Shown here: positions 7,401 through 61,729 of the stretch, one piece after another
Numbering within the stretch: position 1 is the first letter of the stretch
Layout of the letters: every line of letters starts with the position of its first letter
Sequence record: OZ346187.1
Source of the DNA: a phage
DNA length: 64,000 nucleotides
Strand: one strand, 5' to 3'
Notes under the pieces: generated by a model
What the model was told of the DNA's origin: nothing
Seen by the model: only the letters and a program-made list of their open reading frames with translations
Database searches by the model: none
Program-made: the position numbers and the translations under genes

Positions 7401-7880
7401 TATTGCGTTACCGTCCCTTCTGGAGCAATCATTGTGAGAAGGAATGGTAAAGTGGCAGTGTGCGGTAACTGTAATAACGCCAAAGCTTACTCTTCTGTAG
7501 CAGGCAAGGAGATTTCCCGTAACGATGGTAAACCTATCACGTATGGGGTTATGTATGGGGCACAAAAAGATAAAGTTGCAGATATGCTGGACATCTCCCC
7601 AGAGTTGGGACAAAGGGTAATCGATGCACTCTGGGATGCCAACCCAGGTCTTAAGGGGCGCAAAGAGGATCTGGAGAAATTCTGGGAAGCAACAGGTAAG
7701 AAGTTTATCTACTCTTTTGATGGTCATGCTATCTGGACCCGATCTAAACACTCTTTACTTAATGCATACCAACAAAATGGCGGTGCATCGTTGTGTGACT
7801 TAGTTGGAATACTCATGCACCACCAGATGGTGAAGCGTGGGTGGTACGATGAAGGTGTTCGTCGTATTATTTATTACCAT
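4488..7880 (+). CDS. DNA polymerase, family A (T7 gp5-like), exon 1, containing an intein
   Basis: N-terminal FDFEASGL...YHCG exonuclease motif; motif A-like IDGSNLEQL; motif B-like RNDGKPITYGVMYGAQ; ORF stop at 7884-7886 is assigned to the intron. Confidence 0.8.
6501..7469 (+). mobile_element. intein with LAGLIDADG-type homing endonuclease, in-frame between polymerase motifs A and B
   Basis: Starts CYSGDTQILTEKG (intein block A); two LAGLIDADG-like motifs (LLIAIHDDGHL, FIASLSNWDGWV); ends ...VAVCGN followed by Cys at 7470; 969 nt, frame preserved. Confidence 0.65.
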
Positions 7881-8132
7881 AAATAACATTGTGGCTTCAT
7901 AGAGTAATCTATGTCGAATAACCTCTTTAACTGCGGGAAGCCTAAACCTTATGGCAAGGTAATCCGCAACGAAGCGCTCAAAAGAGCGAACGCTCAGAGG
8001 CCATTCCGAAAGGAAGTAGACCAGCAAGTGCGGTCGAAATGGGAGGATTCCTGTGGTTGCTTATCATAGGAATATGAGATGGTCCGATCCTACGTGAAAA
8101 CGTATGGCTATGCACGTAATGGTGCGGGGTAG
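7881..8132 (+). mobile_element. ORF-less group I intron in the DNA polymerase gene
   Basis: P-like CTGCGGGAAGCC and Q-like AATCCGCAACG elements; exon ends in U (7880) that can pair with GUGG 11 nt downstream (P1); ACGU-GAAA-ACGU hairpin near 3' end; last nt G (8132); joining 7880 to 8133 keeps frame. Confidence 0.55.
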
Positions 8133-11688: not shown

Positions 11689-12911
11689 GCGTTATTCAAC
11701 AATTCGCTAACCCGATGAATCCGCGTGAAACTGTTTTACTGGCTCACGGCATGATTAAACGCGTCAGCATCAAGCCTATCAAAGGTGCTGATCCTACAAC
11801 AGGTATTAAAACCACTGTGTGGCAAGGTAAGAAAATTGAATCCAGCCACACCATCTCTTTACTGATTTCTGAACTGGATTCCTCTGATAACCTACTTCAA
11901 GGTGGTGAAGAAGTTTGGATCAGTATGGGCGATAAGCTGCTTAAACCGGGTCATCAAGACTCTGTCTCTGTTAAAATTGATGACAAGTGGGAAACCGTAA
12001 CGCCAGGATGGATCGTAAATATCCCTTTGAAGGCAAACGAGCATAACGGTAAGACCTACTACAAAGGCTCACTGGCTAAGATGGTTAAGCTGGGTGCAGG
12101 AGAGGCTCCAGCAGCGACTCAGCAGCAAAAACAGCAACAAGGTGCACAATCACAAGGCCAGAAGCAGAAACCTCAGCAGAATGCCAATCAGGACGTTTTA
12201 CGCATCTATGGTGATGTGACTCAGATTGTTGGCAACGTGGTTACTGTAAATGACCACAAGATTGGCGAAGGTGCTATGGTTGTAACTGATGAGCAGCTTA
12301 AAGACCTGGTGGTAGGTGGTCGTGTTGCAGCCATTGTTGACAAAGACACTGGAAACATTATCAGTGGTTTCAAGGCCTATCCTCCTAAGGCAGAGAACGG
12401 CACTCAAGGCTCCGGTGGCAAGCGTAAATCCTCTTACGACCCTATCGGTGTGGAAACGGGGCATAGCATCAATGCGTTGCAGATCATCCTGGATCGCGGG
12501 TTTAAGGTAGACGACCCACTGGGCGTGGCTAAAACACTGCACGTAGTCACCATTGAGCTTAAGAAAGAGTATGCTCAAGCCACCAACCGAACTGAAGATG
12601 AAGTAGGTGCCAGTGTCGGTAATGCGGTGTTGAACGCTTGTCGCCGTATTGACAAGAAAACGAAAGTTGATGATTTTGCAGCGGCAATTACTGCAGAAGC
12701 AAAAGATGTCTTGACTAATCTGGCTGAGCCGTTGTACGATTGGATCAAGAACGGTGCTGGGTCAACTGACCATCAAGAACCTCAGGCTGCCAAACAGGAA
12801 GCAGCTCCACAGCAAAACACTGTAGACGCTCCTCCTGTAAATGATGGGGAAGATGACCCGATGGATCAGAATCCAGCACAGTACGCCTTTGATGATGACA
12901 TCCCTTTTTAA
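11685..12911 (+). CDS. putative single-stranded DNA-binding-like protein with SSB-type acidic C-terminal tail
   Basis: 408 aa; Q-rich low-complexity linker (QQQKQQQGAQSQGQKQKPQQ); terminates ...FDDDIPF, the canonical bacterial SSB tail. Confidence 0.4.
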   Translation: MSVIQQFANPMNPRETVLLAHGMIKRVSIKPIKGADPTTGIKTTVWQGKKIESSHTISLLISELDSSDNLLQGGEEVWISMGDKLLKPGHQDSVSVKIDDKWETVTPGWIVNIPLKANEHNGKTYYKGSLAKMVKLGAGEAPAATQQQKQQQGAQSQGQKQKPQQNANQDVLRIYGDVTQIVGNVVTVNDHKIGEGAMVVTDEQLKDLVVGGRVAAIVDKDTGNIISGFKAYPPKAENGTQGSGGKRKSSYDPIGVETGHSINALQIILDRGFKVDDPLGVAKTLHVVTIELKKEYAQATNRTEDEVGASVGNAVLNACRRIDKKTKVDDFAAAITAEAKDVLTNLAEPLYDWIKNGAGSTDHQEPQAAKQEAAPQQNTVDAPPVNDGEDDPMDQNPAQYAFDDDIPF

Positions 12912-12925
12912 CAATTAGTTAACAT

Positions 12926-12954
12926 AGCCCTGCCCGAAAGGGTGGGGCATTTTT
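12926..12954 (+). terminator. rho-independent terminator
   Basis: Same GCCCTGCCC-GAAA-GGGTGGGGC hairpin as at 1547, followed by T-run. Confidence 0.6.
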
Positions 12955-12973
12955 GTATAAGGAGATCTGAAAA

Positions 12974-13390
12974 ATGACATTAGAAGATATCATTGTTAAA
13001 CCTGAGAACTATGACCAATACAACCTGTCAACTCAATCTGTAGACCTTGGATGCGCCACAGTTAGTGCGTGGCTGGTTAATGGAAAAGAGCTGGACAAGT
13101 GCTTAGAAGCTCACATGTCTGTTAACAAGTTTCTGGATGAAAATACTCACTGGCTTGAGGGTGCTGGAGTATATGCTTCATGGTTGGAGAGCATGGGCTT
13201 TGACTATCAATCTGATGAAGGGTGGTGGAGCTATCTGGCTATCTGTCCAGAAACACTGCAATGCTTCATGAAATACTCTGAAGATCTTGAGTACCGAGCG
13301 GTGGTTGATAGTGCTATTGCCCGTTATAGCCGTAAACCTTTTTCCCATGACATTAAAACTGTGGAAGAATTTGTTGAAGTTTTCTGTTGA
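12974..13390 (+). CDS. hypothetical protein
   Basis: 138-aa ORF after AAGGAGA RBS. Confidence 0.4.
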   Translation: MTLEDIIVKPENYDQYNLSTQSVDLGCATVSAWLVNGKELDKCLEAHMSVNKFLDENTHWLEGAGVYASWLESMGFDYQSDEGWWSYLAICPETLQCFMKYSEDLEYRAVVDSAIARYSRKPFSHDIKTVEEFVEVFC

Positions 13391-16447: not shown

Positions 16448-16758
16448 TACTTGAAAATCCCTGGCATATCAAGTGTAAGGAGGATTTCTAAAATGGATTT
16501 CCTCCTTTTGATATTTCACCGGGCCAGATATTTTAAAATTCTTAGAAAATCAGGTCTTTGAAATGAAAAACAGATCGAGTACCGAAAGAGGATGTACAAA
16601 TTTTCTGATAATAATGGACTTATTGTTATAAAAGGTCAGAGGTAAGCTGGGAAAGTTCTGGTAGAAGGGTGAGAGTATGTGCGGAAAAATCTGGAATAGT
16701 GACTTAAAGTACGGTGCGAACGATAAGGAATTGAGCAGCACATCTTATCGTGCCTGTA

Positions 16759-17149
16759 TTTTGTGTGGATGAATGAGAATACCTATCATTGTGAGAACCA
16801 TTATCATTACGGGCAATTTAACAGTACCGATTATGCGCACCACTGGCGATACATACAGGGATTGATAACATGGGTTACTGTTTACGCACATAACAATTGT
16901 ATTTCTTACTATTTGTGTGGGCGTTTAGACGTTGACGGTCAGAAGTCTGCAGGTTAATATCTAATCTATTGGCTGCTAACTATATCCCACACAAATAGTA
17001 AGAAATACAATTGTTATGTGCGTAAACAGTAACCCATGTTATCAATCCCTGTATGCATGCCAGTGGTGCGCATAATGGGTATTATGTTAAATTGCCCGTA
17101 ATGATAATGGTTCTCACAATGATAGGTATTCTCATTCATCCACACAAAA
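16759..17149. repeat. large imperfect inverted repeat (two ~163-bp arms, 16759-16921 and 16986-17149, 64-bp spacer)
   Basis: Right arm is the reverse complement of the left with a few substitutions; mirror ORFs 16763-16957(+) and 17014-17205(-) give the same peptide; spacer holds TTGACG, 17 bp, TAATAT. Confidence 0.85.
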
Positions 17150-17379
17150 TAGATTGCAAATGTTGTGCCACTGTGTGAACGGCCTGGCCTATTAATTTGC
17201 CTCACTGCCTTGATATTTGAGAATTATTATAAGAATGAGAAGTATTCCCATTTCGTCCGCCTGGCAGCACTCCTGTAGGTCCTGCAAGGACTCTAGCTGA
17301 AAGCTAGACCCTTCGGGCCTCCCTGCAGGTCAGGTCAAAATCGTGGTAGAATTGGGCCTGTTCAGATATTTCTGGCTGA

Positions 17380-18590
17380 CTCTTCAGGTCTGTGTGGGAA
17401 AAGCCAACCTCTCCGGCGGGGCATGGGGTCATGACGGGAAAATTGCAGGTCAATTAAAAAATTTACGTGGTGTATGAAGCGCTCTTCAGGTAAGGCAGGT
17501 ATTATGGGATGAAACCCTCTTCAGGCAATGATATTTGTGGGTGTGATATTTGCTGGAAAGCCAGATATGACGGGACTCCCGGCGGGGCAGGGGTAGTACA
17601 GACAGGGAAAATATGGAGGATGTGGTTGGGTAAATTGATCAGGCAGGTAGAGTATGGAATATGTTACAGGTATGTTAAATAGGGAGGCTGAATATCTGTA
17701 GGATTTGTGTGTAAAATCAAAGACTTAAGTGGTGTTGTGGTATTTTCTATAAATAATTCAAGTTTAATAGGTAATATTTGTCTCTATTCGCTTTGTGTGG
17801 TAAACAGATTCAGATGAGATTGGTTTACAAGTGTATACATAATATACAAATTAAAGATACAAGAAACCCCCCTCCCCCTTCGGCTACCATTCACCTTTTC
17901 CTCTGACTGGTACTTAAACACTTATTCAGACTCTTCAGGTTATCACCCATATATCATATGGCAGTGACTGGTGTCCTCCGGCCCCTCTTTCGTCACCCGT
18001 CCGCTTCGCCATGCTAATGCCATAGCCAATGGTTCGGTTGTTCACCCTGTTCACTCAGGTGTATCTCCATACCCCTTCAAACCGAAGAGAACAGAAAACC
18101 CGAATTACTCGGTAAAAGAAAAGAGAAGAACTTAATTTTATCAGGATAGGCAAGAATGTCAAGGCATGACTGCTCACTAAACAAGCAAACAGTCATGTGT
18201 GGAAGGTAAGTGATTGTGGTGGTAGGAAATTTAGTTGAAAGATGTGTTATAGGTGCTTCCAGCACTTTAGCCGGGCAGCTAATTGTGTGTCAGTCCAGCG
18301 GTTCATCCTCTACTTCACTGAAATCAATGTTCATGGTCTCTTCCCAACCATCGATCTCAGCACAAGAGTGGAGTTCTTTAGGGTTTACTCCCAAAGCCTC
18401 AGCAACAGAGTCTATATTTAACACCTCTGGCAGGTATGATTCATCGAATTCAAGGTAAATCAGGCCACGAGTGTTGTCAGCTCCACCAAATATCTCTATC
18501 TTCATGAAATCTCCTCTGGAAATGAGAGTGTGAACAGGGTTTTATACGTTCTAATGCACAGGAATTATACACGTTTGCCTCTTCAGGCCA
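17380..18590. repeat. repeat-rich non-coding junction with recurring CTCTTCAGG 9-mer
   Basis: CTCTTCAGG at ~17380, 17482, 17516, 17931, 18579; related blocks CCGGCGGGGCA(T/G)GGGT at 17412 and 17578 and GGCAGGTA at 17493 and 17643; several short hairpins. Confidence 0.6.
18290..18505 (-). CDS. small acidic protein
   Basis: 71 aa, strongly acidic (D/E-rich); RBS-like AGAGGAGA upstream. Confidence 0.4.
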   Translation of the reverse strand: MKIEIFGGADNTRGLIYLEFDESYLPEVLNIDSVAEALGVNPKELHSCAEIDGWEETMNIDFSEVEDEPLD

Positions 18591-18626
18591 TGCTTTAGCA
18601 TGAGGAACCTGTGTGGGCTCGGTGCT

Positions 18627-18839
18627 TCATAGTCTACCACCTCTGAACTCTTCGTGCTCAGGCATAATAGAGAACCAGATATCTACGATGTCCTCCCACG
18701 TCAGGTCATCAGCCTCAGGATCTGTCTGGGACGAAGATGAAGAGTCCTCAGAATCTAAGTTTTCCTCTTTAACTGGCTCATCCAAGGGACATATGGTCAC
18801 TCCTTCGGATGTCTCTTCAGATGCATGTGTGTTGATCAT
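18627..18839 (-). CDS. small acidic protein
   Basis: 70 aa, very acidic with a poly-Ser stretch. Confidence 0.35.
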   Translation of the reverse strand: MINTHASEETSEGVTICPLDEPVKEENLDSEDSSSSSQTDPEADDLTWEDIVDIWFSIMPEHEEFRGGRL

Positions 18840-19199
18840 GTTCCCCCCGTGAGTATTCCGGCAACAGCCGCTATGGAAGTAATGATCATCAGGATCACCA
18901 CTAAAACTTCAGACAATGTTCTCATTGTGTATTCCATATTCTCCAAACTGTGTGTGGATACTATCACGGGAGCGGTAATGTGTCAACAGCAACGCCGCGA
19001 GGGTTTGGTTAAAATCCGAGCGTATGGTGATTTGGGTCAAAACGGACGTGCGTTCTCGCTACGCTCGAAATATGGAGTTGTTTGTAGGGAGCTCTTAAAC
19101 GCTCTGTAATGAGATTAACTGCCCAAGGTATGCAATCGTGCACCAGATAAAGAAAAGGACGCCACAGAGCGTCCTAGGTGTCTTAAATTTGATATTTTG

Positions 19200-19889: not shown

Positions 19890-20195
19890 TTATTCTACAG
19901 AGCGTTTGAACAGAATGTCTGCCTCAGACATGTGCTCAACCTCTTCTTCGATTTTAGCGCGACGTTTTTCAGCCTCATAGCGAATATCGAACTCGGTAGC
20001 CACCAGAGATTTGATGAATTTAGGAGAATACAGGTGATCCTGCTTCTCAACGAGAATGATATCCTTAATGGCATCTTTCAGATCTTTAATCTGAAGTTGG
20101 AGTTCTACCAGTTCTTCGATTGTTTTGCGAAGGCGATCACGCTCTGCAGTGTCAGAAGGAAGAGAGGTGAACAGTTCAACTTTAGATTTAGCCAT
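19890..20195 (-). CDS. hypothetical coiled-coil protein
   Basis: 101 aa, charged heptad-like sequence. Confidence 0.4.
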   Translation of the reverse strand: MAKSKVELFTSLPSDTAERDRLRKTIEELVELQLQIKDLKDAIKDIILVEKQDHLYSPKFIKSLVATEFDIRYEAEKRRAKIEEEVEHMSEADILFKRSVE

Positions 20196-55892: not shown

Positions 55893-56243
55893 TCAGTAGA
55901 TGTTTTGTTTAATCTCTATTCCAAACTTCTTGAATGAGTCAGCAGCAAGCATAAATTTACGAGCTGCCGATGGATTAGAAGTATGCACGAAAATAATCAC
56001 GTTGTCAATAAGTGGTGGCTTTCCGAATACAAGTTTCTCCTCTAGCGCAGAGAAGCAGTCGTACCCTTCAAGCACTTCACCTAGATCATTGTCAAAATAC
56101 CACTCAGATACGCGTCTGTAGAGCTTTCTCTTATCATTAAGAAAATCCATAAACTCAGAAGAATTCTTTAGCCACAGAGCGTCTGGGAGTCCATAATCTG
56201 ACGGATCTCTAAAATCATCAAGCCACACAATCCACTTCTTCAT
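55893..56243 (-). CDS. hypothetical protein
   Basis: 116-aa ORF between Sir2-like and RNA-ligase-like genes. Confidence 0.4.
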   Translation of the reverse strand: MKKWIVWLDDFRDPSDYGLPDALWLKNSSEFMDFLNDKRKLYRRVSEWYFDNDLGEVLEGYDCFSALEEKLVFGKPPLIDNVIIFVHTSNPSAARKFMLAADSFKKFGIEIKQNIY

Positions 56244-57175
56244 TGCATATAGTCCTCGTTGTGGAAATAGTAGTCCAGTATCTCACGACGCTCCTGCTCT
56301 AATAAGCAATTCCACACATCTTCTGTATAGTTGCTACGAATAAATTTTACCATACCGTAAAACTCTTCGTCAACACGTTTAAAGATATCATCATCCCAAA
56401 TCTTCCAAGCTTTACCCCTCATTACTGCCTTCTGTGCCAGATAGTATGGAGACTTGATCTTCAGCTGCAGATCATAAGGGTAGTAAGGCTTACGAATCAT
56501 ATACCCTTCACCTCTTGTTTCTGCAGCTAATTCTTTTGCATAGCTGAACGGAATTTCACGCACAGTGTTAGGACGTTTTGCACCAAGGTATTTGGCAATC
56601 CCATCTAAAGCTGCTTCTGGTAGCATTATTCCAGAATCATTATATCTGCAACCTATCAAATATGCGCCATGGTCTTCTTGAACAATATGCGGATCTGAAG
56701 GGTGACAAATTTCAAACATGAATGTCATGTTTTCATTGCCCATAACCTTCTTGATAAGATCTAAATTACCACATTGCTCTTGGATGGTTTCCTTTGCAAG
56801 GTTACAATATGGAGAATCAAGAGACCCGGTTGTTGAGAACAATAGGTCACCTTTATGAGATGATACCACACCAAGGAATCCGTTCTTTTTCTCTACCGCA
56901 GTCACAAGCTTATTGTCAGGCAGGTTGGTGGAGTTTTCTCCCAAGTTAAACACTTTTGTGAAGGGCCATGCCACAACATTTCCTTCATTACCTACAACAA
57001 TGCCTCGGCACTCCAGTAAACGAGGGGACAAATGCCATAAATTGTTGTAAAATACTTTTCTAGCATATTTATAGATCTTTAACCCGAGATCTGGGTAATA
57101 CCTACTGGTTGCAAGACCTTTGTCAACTAGGTCGTCTGCATTAAAATACTTCATTATATGTTCCTCATTTGTCAT
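56240..57175 (-). CDS. putative RNA ligase (Rnl1-like nucleotidyltransferase)
   Basis: Motif I-like EKKNG, motif IV-like EGYMIR, motif V-like LKIKSP; likely start is the second Met (57154) after a GAGGAA RBS. Confidence 0.45.
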   Translation of the reverse strand: MTNEEHIMKYFNADDLVDKGLATSRYYPDLGLKIYKYARKVFYNNLWHLSPRLLECRGIVVGNEGNVVAWPFTKVFNLGENSTNLPDNKLVTAVEKKNGFLGVVSSHKGDLLFSTTGSLDSPYCNLAKETIQEQCGNLDLIKKVMGNENMTFMFEICHPSDPHIVQEDHGAYLIGCRYNDSGIMLPEAALDGIAKYLGAKRPNTVREIPFSYAKELAAETRGEGYMIRKPYYPYDLQLKIKSPYYLAQKAVMRGKAWKIWDDDIFKRVDEEFYGMVKFIRSNYTEDVWNCLLEQERREILDYYFHNEDYMQ

Positions 57176-57218
57176 TTTGTCAGTCTATCCTGCCACACAA
57201 ATAACTTAGTGTCAACAC

Positions 57219-57247
57219 TTGAAATTAACAAAACAGTTAGGTATACT
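57219..57247 (+). promoter_or_regulatory. sigma70-type promoter
   Basis: TTGAAA, 17-bp spacer, TATACT. Confidence 0.45.
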
Positions 57248-57275
57248 ACCGTTGAAATTAAAACGGAGGGTCGCT

Positions 57276-57686
57276 ATGTCTAAAATGCTATATATCGTGC
57301 GTGGTCTACCAGGGTCTGGCAAATCAACACTGGCAAATGCGCTATCTTTAGAGGGTCTGTATCCACATTTTGAGAACGACATGTTCTGGTATGACGATGA
57401 CGGCAATTACAACTGGGATGCAAGTAAAGTAACACTCGCAGCAAAATGGTGCAAAGATAACGTAGAAGATATGATGCGTATGGGATACGACCGTATCGTG
57501 GTAAGTAATACGTTTACAAAAGAAAAACATGTGCAGGAATATGTTGACATGGCAATCACTCATGGGTATAGTTATACCGTGATCGTGGTTGAAAACCGCC
57601 ACGGCAATAAAAGCATTCATGATGTTCCAGACAAGGTTGTGGATCGTATGGAACGCCAGCTTAAAAACTGCATTAAACTTAAATGA
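57276..57686 (+). CDS. P-loop kinase, polynucleotide-kinase-like
   Basis: Walker A GLPGSGKST; ATG at 57276 after ACGGAGGG; ORF track 57219-57686. Confidence 0.5.
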   Translation: MSKMLYIVRGLPGSGKSTLANALSLEGLYPHFENDMFWYDDDGNYNWDASKVTLAAKWCKDNVEDMMRMGYDRIVVSNTFTKEKHVQEYVDMAITHGYSYTVIVVENRHGNKSIHDVPDKVVDRMERQLKNCIKLK

Positions 57687-57693
57687 GGAATGT

Positions 57694-58248
57694 ATGAAAT
57701 ACTTTGTAACAAGCGACACACACTTTCTCCACCAGCGGGTCATGGAGTTTGATTCATGTCAAAAACACAGATCTCAGTATGATCACAATCTTGACAGTAT
57801 GAATGCGGGAATCATCACCAAGTGGAACTCTGTTGTGTCACCTGCAGACACTGTGTTCCACTTGGGAGATATTGCATGCACTAATGATAAGAATATCAAC
57901 AAATTGCTCCCAGATATTCTAAATATGTTGAACGGACATATTATTCTTGTTCGTGGCAACCATGACACAAGGACGACTGTCAAAATTATGAAAGAGTTCG
58001 GTCATGAGGTTGTAGATTATTACGAGCTTCGCCACAACAAGAATTTGATCTGTATGAGCCATTACCAGTTTGCAAAGTGGAACAGAAAGCCTCACGGATC
58101 AGTCCAACTGTTCGGTCATGCTCACGGAACCACACAACAGTTGTTTGGCAGGCAGCTTGATGTCGGTTGGGATGTGTGGGGGAGACTCTTACCATTAGAA
58201 GAGGCATACCGTATTGCAATGAGTTTTGATATTGACAGCAGGGAGTAA
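57694..58248 (+). CDS. calcineurin-like metallophosphoesterase
   Basis: SDTHF, GDI, GNHD metallophosphatase motifs; ATG at 57694 after GAGGAA; ORF track 57589-58248. Confidence 0.6.
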   Translation: MKYFVTSDTHFLHQRVMEFDSCQKHRSQYDHNLDSMNAGIITKWNSVVSPADTVFHLGDIACTNDKNINKLLPDILNMLNGHIILVRGNHDTRTTVKIMKEFGHEVVDYYELRHNKNLICMSHYQFAKWNRKPHGSVQLFGHAHGTTQQLFGRQLDVGWDVWGRLLPLEEAYRIAMSFDIDSRE

Positions 58249-58295
58249 TCCCTGCTATTTTAAAGAAAATTGCCACACAAGGAGAATCAGGAGAT

Positions 58296-58646
58296 ATGAA
58301 AGATGGGGATAAGCTGCTATATCTTAAAGTCCCCCTTGAAATACTATCTATGTCAAAAGTTTTGAATGACACAACTGGGGAGGTTGTTGTTCTTGACTTG
58401 TATGACAAGATCGTATACTGCTACCTGCACAACTGGTATAAGCTTGGAGGAAATTCACGCTTCACACCAAGCACAAGGAAAATTGCAGCAGATGTTGGGA
58501 TAAAGAAAACAAAAGCAGCAGCGTGCGTTAAAACTTTAGAATGTGCAGGAGTGGTTGAAACATCCACACAAGGGAGAGGTAAAAGATGCACATTTTCCAA
58601 AGTTTTGCCACCAGAAGAAGTTATTCGGATGTCAACAACTGGTTAG
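58296..58646 (+). CDS. hypothetical protein, possibly DNA-binding
   Basis: 116-aa ORF directly upstream of the iteron-like repeats. Confidence 0.35.
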   Translation: MKDGDKLLYLKVPLEILSMSKVLNDTTGEVVVLDLYDKIVYCYLHNWYKLGGNSRFTPSTRKIAADVGIKKTKAAACVKTLECAGVVETSTQGRGKRCTFSKVLPPEEVIRMSTTG

Positions 58647-58717
58647 ACCAGTAAAAACTTAAATATCTGTACTATAAGGATTCGTATGTTTTATGTTCGC
58701 CATGGAACGGATACTAT

Positions 58718-58783
58718 TAACTGTCCGTGATACGGACACATCTGCCCGTAATACGGACACTAACTGTCCGTGATACGGACACA
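58718..58783. repeat. three tandem ~21-bp iteron-like repeats, each an inverted repeat
   Basis: TAACTGTCCGTGATACGGACACA at 58718 and 58761 (identical) and TCTGCCCGTAATACGGACAC between; each is GTCCGT-N3-ACGGAC; followed by an AT-rich segment with GGTACTAAGTAC / CTAAGTACC palindromes (58790-58920). Confidence 0.8.
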
Positions 58784-58920
58784 TAAAGAATATAACTAAA
58801 ATAACTAAATAATAAAAAATAAAAGATCTAGTACTTATGGTACTAAGTACATATACTTAACTTATGTAGAATATACTAGATCCTAAGTACCATGTTTTAA
58901 ATTTATTACTTACTATGGGC

Positions 58921-59170
58921 AGTGTCGGCCCTTCATTGGCACTCGCCTACGAGGGGCGAGATGCCGGGCCTCCTTGGTGCACACAATAACAGAAGTTCAT
59001 ACATGCAGGTCTGTTAACATGTGTGGGAGCGAAGCGATAGCGCAGGCCAAAGGCCGAGCACTGATGTGGGCCACCGACGAAAGCTTGCCAGCGCCGTAAG
59101 GAGTCGGTTGAGAGTCTCCCGCACGAGCTTGGATGAAGTTTATGTGTGGAAACTGACAAGAAGGCCCCTA
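58921..59170 (+). ncRNA. candidate structured non-coding RNA (unclassified)
   Basis: ~250 bp GC-rich block in AT-rich surroundings; several hairpins (CTCGCC-TACGAGG-GGCGAG, GGCC-AAA-GGCC); only a weak overlapping minus-strand ORF. Confidence 0.25.
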
Positions 59171-61630: not shown

Positions 61631-61729
61631 GCTAGGTAAGCCCTTTGGCAAGGGCGAGGATTTTTAATCCTGAAAATAGACGAGGTAGTCGTTGAATACA
61701 TAGGTGGTTCGATTCCATCACCTAGCACC
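61631..61729 (+). tRNA. atypical tRNA-like gene (~99 nt), anticodon ambiguous (most consistent with TTT)
   Basis: Perfect 7-bp acceptor GCTAGGT/ACCTAGC, D-arm GCCC-TTTGGCAA-GGGC, T-arm GGTGG-TTCGATT-CCATC; anticodon stem imperfect with loop TTTTTAA; ~29-nt extra region before the T-arm; 3' end ACC then T (CCA not fully encoded). Confidence 0.35.

What the first reader, a model, noticed from the sequence alone, without database searches (positions are those of the whole stretch)
17200..18290. ORF-poor convergent junction with a recurring CTCTTCAGG 9-mer and related blocks
Between the 3' ends of the plus and minus gene blocks lies ~1.1 kb with no credible ORF, five copies of CTCTTCAGG, repeated CCGGCGGGGCA(T/G)GGGT and GGCAGGTA blocks, and multiple short hairpins. 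A repeated short motif in a large non-coding region suggests a protein-binding array (origin, packaging site, or nucleoid-protein sink) or a non-coding RNA locus.
Basis: seen in the sequence. Interest (0 to 1): 0.55.

Follow-up and report, generated by a model that had tools for sequence, protein, structure and literature searches.

The report
Conserved non-coding region beside phage genome end
The ORF-free kilobase is real and conserved in more than 100 rV5-like E. coli phages: it lies directly beside the physical end of the phage chromosome and holds a promoter-bounded, almost invariant 300-bp non-coding unit aimed at an AT-rich stretch, which most likely acts in DNA replication start and/or chromosome-end processing rather than being spacer DNA.

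Summary
CTCTTCAGG occurs 7 times in 64 kb (0.48 expected). Five copies lie at 17380-18587, all on the + strand; four are inside the given coordinates. No ORF is conserved.

The window is an rV5-like Vequintavirus. This stretch is the unexplained "non-coding" box of the 2013 rV5 paper. Records with determined ends place the chromosome terminus at window 17261|17262, the right edge of a 458/459-bp direct terminal repeat. The finding is therefore the unique DNA beside a genome end, not just a convergent junction.

From the terminus inward there are four parts:
- a hypervariable 100-bp cassette;
- conserved G-rich repeat modules carrying three CTCTTCAGG copies and two of the window's three most G-quadruplex-prone sites;
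- an AT-rich trough (27-29% GC);
- a 300-bp block (17867-18165) that is 97-99.8% identical even in genomes only 80-85% identical overall.

That block runs exactly from a consensus minus-strand sigma-70 promoter to a G5AG6 run. It is not protein-coding and matches no Rfam family.

Best reading (about 0.35): a transcription-primed replication origin. Rivals are T7-like concatemer-end processing/packaging signals and a trans-acting ncRNA. Nothing was tested experimentally.

The parts
16914..17261 (.). Retained right-hand 348 bp of the 458/459-bp direct terminal repeat (DTR) of Vequintavirus genomes. It contains an 18-bp tandem repeat at 17100-17134.
   Evidence: Aligns to ECP2309 record positions 351-1. 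ECP2309 positions 1-459 equal 136405-136863 at 100%. Gotham annotates repeat_region 1-459. EdH4 and HdK5 have a 458-bp terminal redundancy (PMC6563267).
17250..17275 (.). Terminus context ...TTCGTCCGCC|TGGCAGC, with the cut between 17261 and 17262. About 25 bp across the boundary are conserved.
   Evidence: Records Gotham, EdH4, HdK5, ECP2309, ECP2303 and bov10K2/bov25_3 start or end at this nucleotide. Conservation is shown.
17264..17363 (.). Hypervariable cassette directly inside the terminus. It occurs in at least 4 alternative forms, including a 50-nt hairpin-rich insert and complete deletions.
   Evidence: Mean pairwise identity is 0.52-0.64. The alternative forms are listed.
17364..17613 (+). 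Conserved G-rich repeat modules. Two degenerate composite units (17365-17439 and 17517-17608) each carry GATATTT, CTCTTCAGG, TGTGGG, GGAAAGCCA, CCGGCGGGGCAKGGGG and GGGAAAAT. There is also a 20-nt repeat, ATGAAnCnCTCTTCAGGyAA, at 17474 and 17509.
   Evidence: Repeats. Identity of blocks 17364-17413 and 17464-17613 is 95-98%. GC skew is +0.2 to +0.7.
17380..17388 (+). CTCTTCAGG copy 1, 119 bp from the terminus.
   Evidence: Identical in 19/19 genomes.
17482..17490 (+). CTCTTCAGG copy 2.
   Evidence: Identical in 16/19 genomes.
17517..17525 (+). CTCTTCAGG copy 3.
   Evidence: Identical in 19/19 genomes.
17415..17439 (+). G-quadruplex-prone tract GGCGGGGCATGGGGTCATGACGGGA.
   Evidence: G4Hunter score +1.68, second highest in 64 kb. 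Motif statistics.
17584..17608 (+). G-quadruplex-prone tract GGGGCAGGGGTAGTACAGACAGGGA.
   Evidence: G4Hunter score +1.60, third highest in 64 kb.
17690..17866 (.). AT-rich trough (27-29% GC). The left part, 17700-17781, is conserved; it contains an invariant TATAAATA at 17748-17755 (+) and an IHF-consensus match at 17715-17727. The right part, 17782-17866, is variable and is replaced in some genomes by unrelated sequence that is still AT-rich.
   Evidence: Composition. It ranks 2nd-3rd lowest in GC in the window. Conservation. The replacement allele has 32-34% GC. IHF consensus: 8 matches against 4.6 expected in the window, which is weak.
17867..17878 (-). G5AG6 run on the minus strand (C6TC5 on the plus strand). 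It marks the exact left edge of the ultra-conserved block. Its length is polymorphic among genomes (G4AG6 to G6AG7).
   Evidence: It is the only such double run of five or more in the window and has the top G4Hunter score, -1.84. Variants.
17867..18128 (-). Ultra-conserved non-coding block, the predicted ~262-nt transcript of the promoter below. It contains CTCTTCAGG copy 4 (17931-17939), a hairpin CCATAT-ATC-ATATGG (17947-17961) whose loop varies, and a weak hairpin plus U-run at 18100-18112.
   Evidence: Pairwise identity is 97-99.8%. Only 4 substitutions occur in the 85%-identical contig L030, against about 25 in the adjacent 216-nt gene. No conserved ORF. No Rfam hit. Alifold and variable-site analysis.
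18135..18162 (-). Sigma-70 promoter TTGACA-16 nt-TGaTAAAAT reading toward the terminus. The predicted start is near 18128.
   Evidence: It matches 11/12 positions plus the TG extension and belongs to the window's top promoter class. In the 80%-identical genome both hexamers are kept while the spacer diverges and gains 2 nt.
18165..18197 (.). Inverted repeat CATGACTG / CAGTCATG immediately upstream of the -35 element. It could be an operator or the end of the upstream operon.
   Evidence: Read directly from the sequence. About 97% conserved.
18579..18587 (+). CTCTTCAGG copy 5, outside the given coordinates. On the minus strand it overlaps the -35 position of a putative promoter (CCTGAAGAG-N9-TATAAT) for the 71-aa gene 18290-18505.
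   Evidence: Identical in 17/19 genomes.

Best explanation
The region is the cis-acting control DNA that flanks the right-hand chromosome end of an rV5-like phage. Its core is most likely a transcription-primed replication origin.

Proposed mechanism, step by step:
- Early in infection, host sigma-70 RNA polymerase starts at the consensus promoter at 18162-18135 (minus strand).
- It transcribes the ~262-nt invariant block.
- It reaches the G5AG6 run at 17878-17867. There the G-rich RNA and G-rich non-template strand favour a persistent RNA-DNA hybrid, or hybrid G-quadruplex, and stalling.
- The hybrid sits at the edge of the easily melted AT-rich stretch (17690-17866).
- The phage's T7-like primase-helicase and DNA polymerase can then be loaded.
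- The conserved G-rich modules with same-strand CTCTTCAGG copies on the far side of the AT stretch are binding or pausing sites that organise this event, and possibly the nearby terminal-repeat cut.

Shown: the location next to the terminus, motif enrichment and conservation, the promoter-to-G-run boundaries of the invariant block, its non-coding nature, and the composition extremes.

Inferred: transcription itself, R-loop formation, priming, and protein binding.
For: - The terminus maps to 17261|17262 in independently determined records (PMC6563267).
- The invariant block spans exactly from the -35 hexamer to the G-run. Flanks diverge abruptly on both sides in the 80-85%-identical genomes.
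- Promoter hexamers are conserved while the spacer diverges. The promoter is in the top class of the window; all the others of that class examined face genes.
- The block is non-coding.
- The G5AG6 run is unique in 64 kb. The three highest G4Hunter scores of the window all lie in this 500-bp neighbourhood, each on the strand that would be the RNA-like strand for transcription toward the AT trough.
- The AT trough is the 2nd-3rd lowest-GC stretch in the window. It stays AT-rich when its sequence is replaced.
- Wobble-type substitutions fit minus-strand RNA pairing only; this is weak evidence.
- Precedent: promoter, then GxAGy run (CSBII), then R-loop primer in human mitochondria, whose replisome is T7-like (PMC6317783; PMC8780183).
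- The phage encodes a gp4-type primase-helicase (PMC3606486).
Against: - There are no experimental data of any kind, and no transcriptome was found.
- Predicted RNA folding is no better than shuffled sequence (z = -0.94 on the minus strand, -0.16 on the plus strand). No compensatory base-pair changes exist because there is almost no variation.
- The GC-skew switch here has the polarity of converging transcription or a terminus, not of a bacterial-type origin. The rV5 authors could not assign an origin from skew.
- An origin 0.6-0.9 kb from a chromosome end, firing toward that end, is unusual.
- The invariance of all 262 nt is more than known R-loop origins need.
- E. coli RNA polymerase has not been shown to stall at GxAGy runs.
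- The 9-mers are not iteron-like in length or spacing.
- The same architecture also fits T7-style transcription-coupled end processing.
Confidence: 0.35

Rival explanations
1. Concatemer-end processing and packaging signal of the T7 type. Transcription from the 18162 promoter runs toward the terminal repeat. It pauses in the G-rich, template-strand G4-prone repeat modules 100-350 bp before the repeat boundary. The paused complex and/or proteins bound to the CTCTTCAGG copies recruit terminase to cut at 17261|17262 and duplicate the repeat.
For: - The region abuts the repeat boundary.
- The layout (promoter, short repeats, terminal repeat, short repeats) parallels T7's phiOR-SRR-TR-SRL; that T7 layout is recalled from my own knowledge of Dunn & Studier 1983 and Chung & Hinkle 1990.
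- T7 RNA polymerase pausing at the concatemer junction starts maturation and packaging (PMC3276506).
- The other boundary of the repeat in canonical genomes carries a clear periodic array, (NNNN)TGTCA x3-7 at a 9-10 bp period, ending ...TGTCA|GACAAG. So boundary-adjacent arrays are a feature of this system.
- The first CTCTTCAGG copy lies 119 bp from the cut and is invariant.
Against: - The 100 bp next to the cut are hypervariable or deletable.
- The most conserved part lies 600-900 bp from the cut, and its edges coincide with a promoter and a G-run rather than with anything at the terminus.
- The obvious terminase-type array sits on the other side of the repeat.
- CTCTTCAGG is absent from the left flank.
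Confidence: 0.25
2. A trans-acting early non-coding RNA gene of about 260 nt on the minus strand, 18128 to 17867. It would act on a conserved host or phage target, for example an anti-defence or host-takeover RNA. The rest of the region would be unrelated regulatory or terminal DNA.
For: - A promoter-bounded unit that is more conserved than neighbouring genes and is non-coding.
- Variable sites concentrate in predicted loops.
- G-U-type changes fit the minus-strand RNA.
Against: - No intrinsic terminator; only a weak 5-bp hairpin at +16.
- Folding energy is not better than shuffles.
- No Rfam family even at E<=10.
- No similarity to E. coli DNA.
- No homologue outside the genus.
- This reading does not explain the repeats, the AT trough or the position at the terminus.
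Confidence: 0.2
3. Ordinary transcription-termination spacer between converging operons. The repeats would be leftovers of old duplications, and the conservation would simply reflect the recent common ancestry of these phages.
For: - The junction is convergent.
- The genus is closely related, at 87-98% identity.
- The two composite modules look like an ancient duplication.
Against: - Terminator-like sites are not enriched: 2 found against 3.2 expected. The rV5 authors also found none here.
- Conservation is strongly patterned. Blocks at 97-99.8% sit next to segments at 52-64%, and the blocks exceed the flanking coding genes.
- The 9-mer copies are invariant where 89% of 9-mers are not.
Confidence: 0.07
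4. Unannotated small protein genes. Several records annotate 35-65-aa ORFs here; one is even labelled 'structural protein'.
For: Deposited annotations in APCEc02, Murica, Alma, PMBT16 and JLBYU08.
Against: - All candidate ORFs are disrupted in some genomes by lost starts, stops or indels of 1-2 nt.
- They show no excess of synonymous change.
- A 2-nt insertion in the promoter spacer frameshifts the 62-aa ORF.
Confidence: 0.03

Closest known systems
Bacteriophage T7/T3 concatemer-junction region (phiOR promoter - SRR short repeats - 160-bp terminal repeat - SRL short repeats - phiOL). phiOR/phiOL also act as secondary replication origins.
   Same: - A short direct terminal repeat flanked on both sides by non-coding DNA with short repeated motifs.
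- A promoter a few hundred bp inside the right end reading toward the repeat.
- Dual association with replication and end processing.
- RNA polymerase pausing at the junction starts packaging (PMC3276506). The remaining T7 details are from my own knowledge.
   Different: - The host sigma-70 promoter replaces a phage-RNAP promoter.
- The repeat is 459 bp rather than 160 bp, in a myovirus of about 137 kb.
- There is no sequence similarity.
- A 262-nt invariant transcribed block and a GxAGy run have no T7 counterpart.
- Function is untested.
R-loop / transcript-primed origins: human mitochondrial LSP-CSBII-OH, ColE1 RNA II, T4 oriF/oriG, and the T7 primary origin (promoters plus an AT-rich region).
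   Same: - A promoter, then a transcribed spacer, then a G-run of the CSBII form GxAGy on the RNA-like strand, then AT-rich DNA.
- The G-run length is polymorphic, as in CSBII (G5AG7, G6AG7, G6AG8; PMC8780183).
- CSBII terminates transcription and anchors the primer R-loop (PMC6317783).
- Both systems have a T7-like replisome.
   Different: - The polymerase would be bacterial RNAP, for which GxAGy stalling is not documented.
- The transcript is about 260 nt, against about 120 nt (mitochondria) or 555 nt (ColE1).
- No RNase H site, primer 3' end or initiation point is known.
- The position is less than 1 kb from a linear chromosome end.
Lambda cos (cosQ-cosN-cosB, with gpNu1 R sites and an IHF site) and pac sites bound by small terminase.
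   Same: Several short protein-binding repeats within a few hundred bp of the terminase cut, with an IHF-consensus match nearby.
   Different: - The ends are a direct repeat, not cohesive ends.
- The 9-mers all face the same way and are irregularly spaced.
- The periodic array that looks most like a terminase-binding site (TGTCA repeats) lies on the other side of the repeat and is missing from this window.
The 'non-coding' box of phage rV5 (Kropinski et al. 2013, Virol J 10:76).
   Same: It is the same locus: an ORF-free stretch between the converging genes 163 and 164, with a GC-skew shift at 104.4-105.5 kb.
   Different: That paper treated the genome as circularly permuted and gave the box no function or internal anatomy. 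The terminus, motif arrays, promoter-bounded invariant block and G-runs were not described in any paper I could find.
T5 injection-stop-signal region and herpesvirus pac1/pac2 (recalled from memory, not checked here).
   Same: Large ORF-free, repeat- and palindrome-rich DNA associated with chromosome ends (T5). G/C runs flanking an A/T element next to direct terminal repeats (herpesvirus pac1).
   Different: The distances from the end and the motif sequences differ. There is no evidence for two-step DNA entry in rV5-like phages.

Membership tests
T7-type terminal-repeat / concatemer-junction processing region | Lies at the boundary of a short direct terminal repeat of a linear phage chromosome. 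| tested here: met
   Window 16914-17261 aligns to the 459-bp repeat found at both ends of ECP2309. The boundary is 17261|17262 in records from at least 4 laboratories (PMC6563267).
T7-type terminal-repeat / concatemer-junction processing region | Arrays of short repeats flank the terminal repeat. | tested here: met
   Right flank: CTCTTCAGG x3-4, GATATTT x3 and the composite modules. Left flank in canonical genomes: a TGTCA array with a 9-10 bp period.
T7-type terminal-repeat / concatemer-junction processing region | A promoter inside the right end reads toward the repeat, and transcription or pausing is needed for processing. | tested here: inconclusive
   A consensus, conserved sigma-70 promoter is correctly oriented. 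Activity and requirement are not testable here.
T7-type terminal-repeat / concatemer-junction processing region | The sequence is required in cis for packaging. | not testable with these tools
   This needs a plasmid transduction or deletion assay.
Transcript-primed (R-loop) replication origin | A promoter upstream of an easily unwound AT-rich element. | tested here: met
   The promoter is at 18162-18135. The AT trough at 17690-17866 has 27-29% GC and ranks 2nd-3rd lowest in 64 kb.
Transcript-primed (R-loop) replication origin | A G-rich RNA / C-rich template element that stabilises the hybrid at the transition point. | tested here: met
   The G5AG6 run lies at the block/AT boundary. It is unique in the window and has the top G4Hunter score.
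Transcript-primed (R-loop) replication origin | RNA-DNA transition points or an early copy-number peak at the site. | not testable with these tools
   No reads or experiments are available.
Transcript-primed (R-loop) replication origin | A strand-composition switch of origin polarity. | tested here: not met
   Cumulative GC skew peaks here, which is the polarity of a terminus or converging transcription, and it tracks gene orientation across the window.
Iteron-type origin (lambda ori, theta plasmids) | Three or more direct repeats of about 17-22 bp at regular spacing beside an AT-rich region, with an initiator gene at or next to the site. | tested here: not met
   The core is only 9-10 bp. Spacings are 102, 35, 414 and 648 bp. 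No initiator gene was identified; neighbouring genes are small proteins of unknown function.
Any described RNA family (Rfam 15) | A covariance-model match at or near the gathering score. | tested here: not met
   Nothing in 17200-18300 reaches the gathering score or E<=10. The only hits lie inside the palindrome/DTR and are far below threshold.
Structured ncRNA in general | Folding energy better than shuffled sequence and/or compensatory base changes. | tested here: inconclusive
   z = -0.94 on the minus strand and -0.16 on the plus strand. There are 17 variable columns of 267, mostly in predicted loops, with no double compensatory change. There is too little variation to decide.
Bidirectional intrinsic terminator region | GC-rich hairpins followed by a T-run on both strands. 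| tested here: not met
   Two weak sites in 4 kb against 3.2 expected. None were reported for rV5 either.
Protein-coding gene(s) | An ORF intact across relatives with mainly synonymous change. | tested here: not met

The most novel reading that the evidence does not exclude
rV5-like phages start replication with a mitochondria-style mechanism run by the host RNA polymerase. An early sigma-70 transcript of an invariant ~260-nt leader stalls at a CSBII-like G5AG6 run. It forms a hybrid G-quadruplex-anchored R-loop at the edge of an AT-rich element and primes the phage's T7-like replisome. The two template-strand G4-prone modules and the CTCTTCAGG sites between this origin and the terminal repeat then act as a programmed barrier that couples replication or transcription arrest to terminal-repeat cutting.
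Probability: 0.12. Interest if true: 0.8.

Novelty: new variant of a known kind. Interest (0 to 1): 0.55.

Why it matters
Vequintaviruses are common, therapeutically used E. coli phages (rV5, the BASEL collection, EdH4), yet neither their origin of replication nor their packaging signals are known. The 2.5-kb "non-coding box" has stood unexplained since 2013.

This work places the box at the chromosome end and resolves it into defined parts: a promoter, an invariant 262-nt unit, a G5AG6 run, an AT trough, conserved 9-mers and G4-prone tracts. That turns it into a short list of mutations and assays.

If the origin reading holds, it would be a bacterial-virus example of G-run/R-loop priming, known so far from mitochondria and ColE1-type plasmids. 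If the packaging reading holds, it would extend T7-like transcription-coupled end processing to a large myovirus that uses the host polymerase.

Either way, the elements are needed for engineering these phages: minimal genomes, phagemids, and safe deletion of the dispensable segments.

Tried and rejected
- **Rfam.** Scans at the gathering score and at E<=10 found nothing in the region.
- **RNA folding.** Single-sequence folding of the invariant block on both strands is not better than shuffles. Alifold and variable-site analysis gave no compensatory changes.
- **Small ORFs.** Tested across 19 genomes and rejected.
- **CTCTTCAGG as a promoter element.** On the minus strand only the 18579 copy has a good -10 at a sensible distance and a gene downstream. 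The other copies do not, so a general 'motif = promoter' reading was dropped (and reading).
- **The two distant copies (42626, 43493).** They are coding coincidences.
- **Equivalent locus in other Vequintavirinae genera.** I used the neighbouring 101-aa DNA-binding-like protein as a marker. It is found in Mydovirus, Seunavirus and Certrevirus, but there it sits in the middle of an operon with no adjacent non-coding gap. This was a dead end and cost 4 calls (63-66).
- **More divergent copies.** IMG/VR yielded 2-3 contigs and the metagenome scan 5. Only two (80% and 85% identity) were useful.
- **IHF consensus.** One match in the AT trough, but 8 in the window against 4.6 expected, so it is weak.
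- **E. coli Chi, Tus-Ter and DnaA boxes.** Checked by eye. There is no Chi and no convincing Ter; TCATCCACA-like near-matches to the DnaA box occur in the DTR only. None of these were pursued.
- **Literature.** No transcriptome and no origin or packaging study of a Vequintavirus was found.
- **Source of the window.** I did not identify the single record with >=99% identity reported, nor the source of the window.
Full report
**What the window is.** The region and its flanks match about 120 Vequintavirus (rV5-like) E. coli phage records at 87-98% identity and match nothing outside that genus. In rV5 itself this is the grey "non-coding" box between the converging genes 163 and 164. The authors expected bidirectional terminators there and found none. 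They noted only a GC-skew shift (PMC3606486).

**Checking the observation.**
- CTCTTCAGG occurs 7 times in 64 kb against 0.48 expected.
- Five copies lie within 1.2 kb (17380, 17482, 17517, 17931, 18579), all on the + strand. The fifth is just outside the stated coordinates.
- The other two copies are Pro-Glu-Glu codons inside minus-strand genes.
- CCGGCGGGGCAKGGG occurs twice against 0 expected. GGCAGGTA occurs 6 times against 1.35 expected.
- In a 19-genome alignment, three 9-mer copies are invariant and two are kept in 16-17 genomes, whereas only 11% of 9-mers in 17262-17860 are invariant.
- No ORF survives comparison across genomes.

**The key context: a chromosome end.**
- Several records start or stop inside this locus. 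ECP2309 carries the same 459 bp at both ends, and window 16914-17261 aligns to positions 351-1 of that repeat.
- Gotham annotates the same 459 bp as a repeat region.
- HdK5 and EdH4 are published with 458-bp terminal redundancies (PMC6563267).
- bov10K2 and bov25_3 end at the same nucleotide.

The boundary is ...CGTCCGCC|TGGCAGC, between window 17261 and 17262. The finding is therefore the unique sequence directly beside the direct terminal repeat. In canonical genomes the ORF-free gap is about 2.5 kb: a 1-kb left flank, the repeat, then this 1-kb right flank. The left edge of the repeat is preceded in every genome by 3-7 copies of TGTCA at a 9-10 bp period, ending TGTCA|GACAAG.

**Anatomy of the right flank.** This is based on alignments of 19 plus 5 genomes, including contigs only 80% and 85% identical overall.
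1. 17264-17363 is hypervariable, with at least four forms including full deletion.
2. 17364-17613 is conserved at 95-98%. It consists of two degenerate composite modules that carry CTCTTCAGG, GATATTT, TGTGGG, GGAAAGCCA and CCGGCGGGGCAKGGGG. GC skew reaches +0.7.
3. 17690-17866 is an AT-rich trough of 27-29% GC, the second or third lowest in the window.
   - Its left part is conserved and contains an invariant TATAAATA.
   - Its right part is variable. In three genomes it is replaced by unrelated DNA that is still AT-rich.
4. 17867-18165 is 97-99.8% identical in all genomes. The 85%-identical contig has 4 substitutions there, against about 25 in the neighbouring 216-nt gene.

**Edges of the invariant block.** The edges are sharp.
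- On the right the block ends at the -35 hexamer of a minus-strand promoter, TTGACA-16-TGaTAAAAT, which matches 11/12 positions. This promoter belongs to the window's best class. In the most divergent genome both hexamers are intact while the spacer has diverged and gained 2 nt. That pattern is expected of a working promoter.
- On the left the block ends at C6TC5, which reads G5AG6 on the transcribed sense. This is the only such run in 64 kb. Its length is polymorphic among genomes.

The three highest G4Hunter scores of the whole window are this run and the two CCGGCGGGGCA tracts.

**What the block is not.**
- It is not protein-coding.
- It is not a member of any Rfam family.
- It is not similar to E. 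coli DNA.
- It is not detectably more foldable than shuffled sequence.

The few variable sites cluster in predicted loops. For example, all three loop bases of the hairpin at 17947-17961 vary. Three wobble-type changes fit only a minus-strand RNA. There are no compensatory pairs, so the structural evidence is weak.

**Interpretation.** The coincidence of the conservation edges with a promoter and a G-run argues for a transcription unit, not just a protein-binding DNA site. A strong early promoter, a conserved leader, a GxAGy run and then an AT-rich element is the layout of transcript-primed origins. In human mitochondria, transcripts from LSP stop at CSBII (G5-6AG7-8) and form a hybrid G-quadruplex R-loop that primes DNA synthesis (PMC6317783, PMC8780183). 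That system uses a T7-like replisome, and so do these phages. I therefore rank a transcription-primed origin first, at about 0.35.

The same layout (promoter, short repeats, terminal repeat, short repeats) is also that of the T7 concatemer junction. There, polymerase pausing triggers packaging (PMC3276506). I rate that rival at about 0.25. A trans-acting early ncRNA is third, at about 0.2. The readings are not exclusive: T7's end-proximal promoters serve both replication and processing.

**Evidence against the origin reading.**
- The skew polarity is terminus-like.
- The site is close to the chromosome end.
- No data show that E. coli RNA polymerase stalls at such runs.
- The 9-mers do not qualify as iterons.

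**Role of CTCTTCAGG.** It is enriched, kept on one strand and conserved. Most likely it is a recognition site for an unidentified DNA-binding protein, or a pausing site. One copy lies inside the invariant block. One overlaps the -35 position of a putative promoter for the 71-aa gene. The motif is absent from the left flank of the repeat. I could not assign a binding protein.

**Novelty.** The locus and the terminal repeat are already on record. Their juxtaposition, the internal anatomy, the promoter-bounded invariant unit and the CSBII-like run appear undescribed in the papers I could search. I class this as a new variant of a known kind of element, namely terminal replication/packaging control DNA of phages with direct terminal repeats. 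Interest is moderate, and it gives clear, cheap experiments.

**A caveat about this particular window.** Between 16553 and 16914 it lacks 12.1 kb that all relatives have: about 33 small genes, the whole left flank, the TGTCA array and the first ~110 bp of the repeat. In their place are an inverted 200-bp segment and an inverted copy of 16986-17151. Together these create a 395-bp near-perfect palindrome whose joints lie at TGTGTGG microhomologies. No database record shares this junction. I could not decide whether it is a real deletion mutant or an assembly product. It does not affect the finding region, which is collinear with all relatives.

Noticed in passing
window 16554-17151 (junctions near 16553/16554, 16756/16757, 16914-16921): A 12.1-kb deletion relative to all relatives (Bas58 L004 19190-31286). 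It is replaced by an inverted ~200-bp segment (equivalent to ECP2309 12884-13106) plus an inverted copy of 16986-17151. The result is a 395-bp palindrome with ~165-nt arms at 96-100% complementarity and a 64-nt loop, lying inside the terminal repeat. The joints use TGTGTGG/CCACACA microhomology. The deletion removes the left repeat boundary and its TGTCA array. No public record has this junction. It is either a real mutant or an assembly artefact.
   Followed up: partly
Relatives only: L004 31128-31180 (Bas58) and the equivalent position in 16 other loci: An array of 3-7 TGTCA motifs at a 9-10 bp period directly abuts the left edge of the 459-bp terminal repeat (...TGTCA|GACAAGTTTTT). Spacers differ between genomes but the motif and its phase are kept. 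It looks like a terminase (small subunit) recognition array. It is absent from this window.
   Followed up: partly
window 16762-18957 and 56223-59149: TGTGTGG occurs 33 times in the window against 9.4 expected. There are clusters of 10 and 9 copies at the two strand-switch regions: the convergent junction/terminus and the divergent junction near 57 kb. No extended consensus was seen.
   Followed up: partly
window 17100-17134: An 18-bp tandem repeat (AATGATAATGGTTCTCA / AATGATAGGTATTCTCA) lies inside the terminal repeat. Other records annotate it as a repeat region. It is mirrored at 16774-16808 by the palindrome.
   Followed up: no
window 61631-61729: A 99-nt tRNA-like gene in the tRNA cluster, for which ARAGORN gives no amino acid and a 4-base anticodon (atcc). 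Rfam tRNA scores it at only 35.5 bits. It could be an intron-containing, frameshift-suppressor-like or degenerate tRNA.
   Followed up: no
window 7871-8106: A group I intron (Rfam RF00028, 64.7 bits) lies in the DNA polymerase region. Bas58 annotates the polymerase as a two-part join with a homing endonuclease inside.
   Followed up: no
window 19890-20195 (-): A 101-aa protein annotated elsewhere as 'transcriptional regulator / double-stranded DNA-binding protein' is 100% identical at the amino-acid level in 115 records. It has 42-58% identical homologues in Mydovirus, Seunavirus and Certrevirus. It is a candidate DNA-binding factor encoded 1.6 kb from the non-coding region.
   Followed up: partly
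window 17748-17755 (+): TATAAATA, the T4 late-promoter consensus, is invariant in all aligned genomes. rV5 late genes carry the related TggTAaAAtA. It points into the invariant block in the antisense direction, so a late antisense transcript is possible.
   Followed up: no
plasmid collection record CP057073.1 (137,565 bp): A record filed as a non-mobilizable E. coli plasmid from cattle faeces carries the invariant block at 99.7% identity and has the size of a Vequintavirus genome.
   Followed up: no
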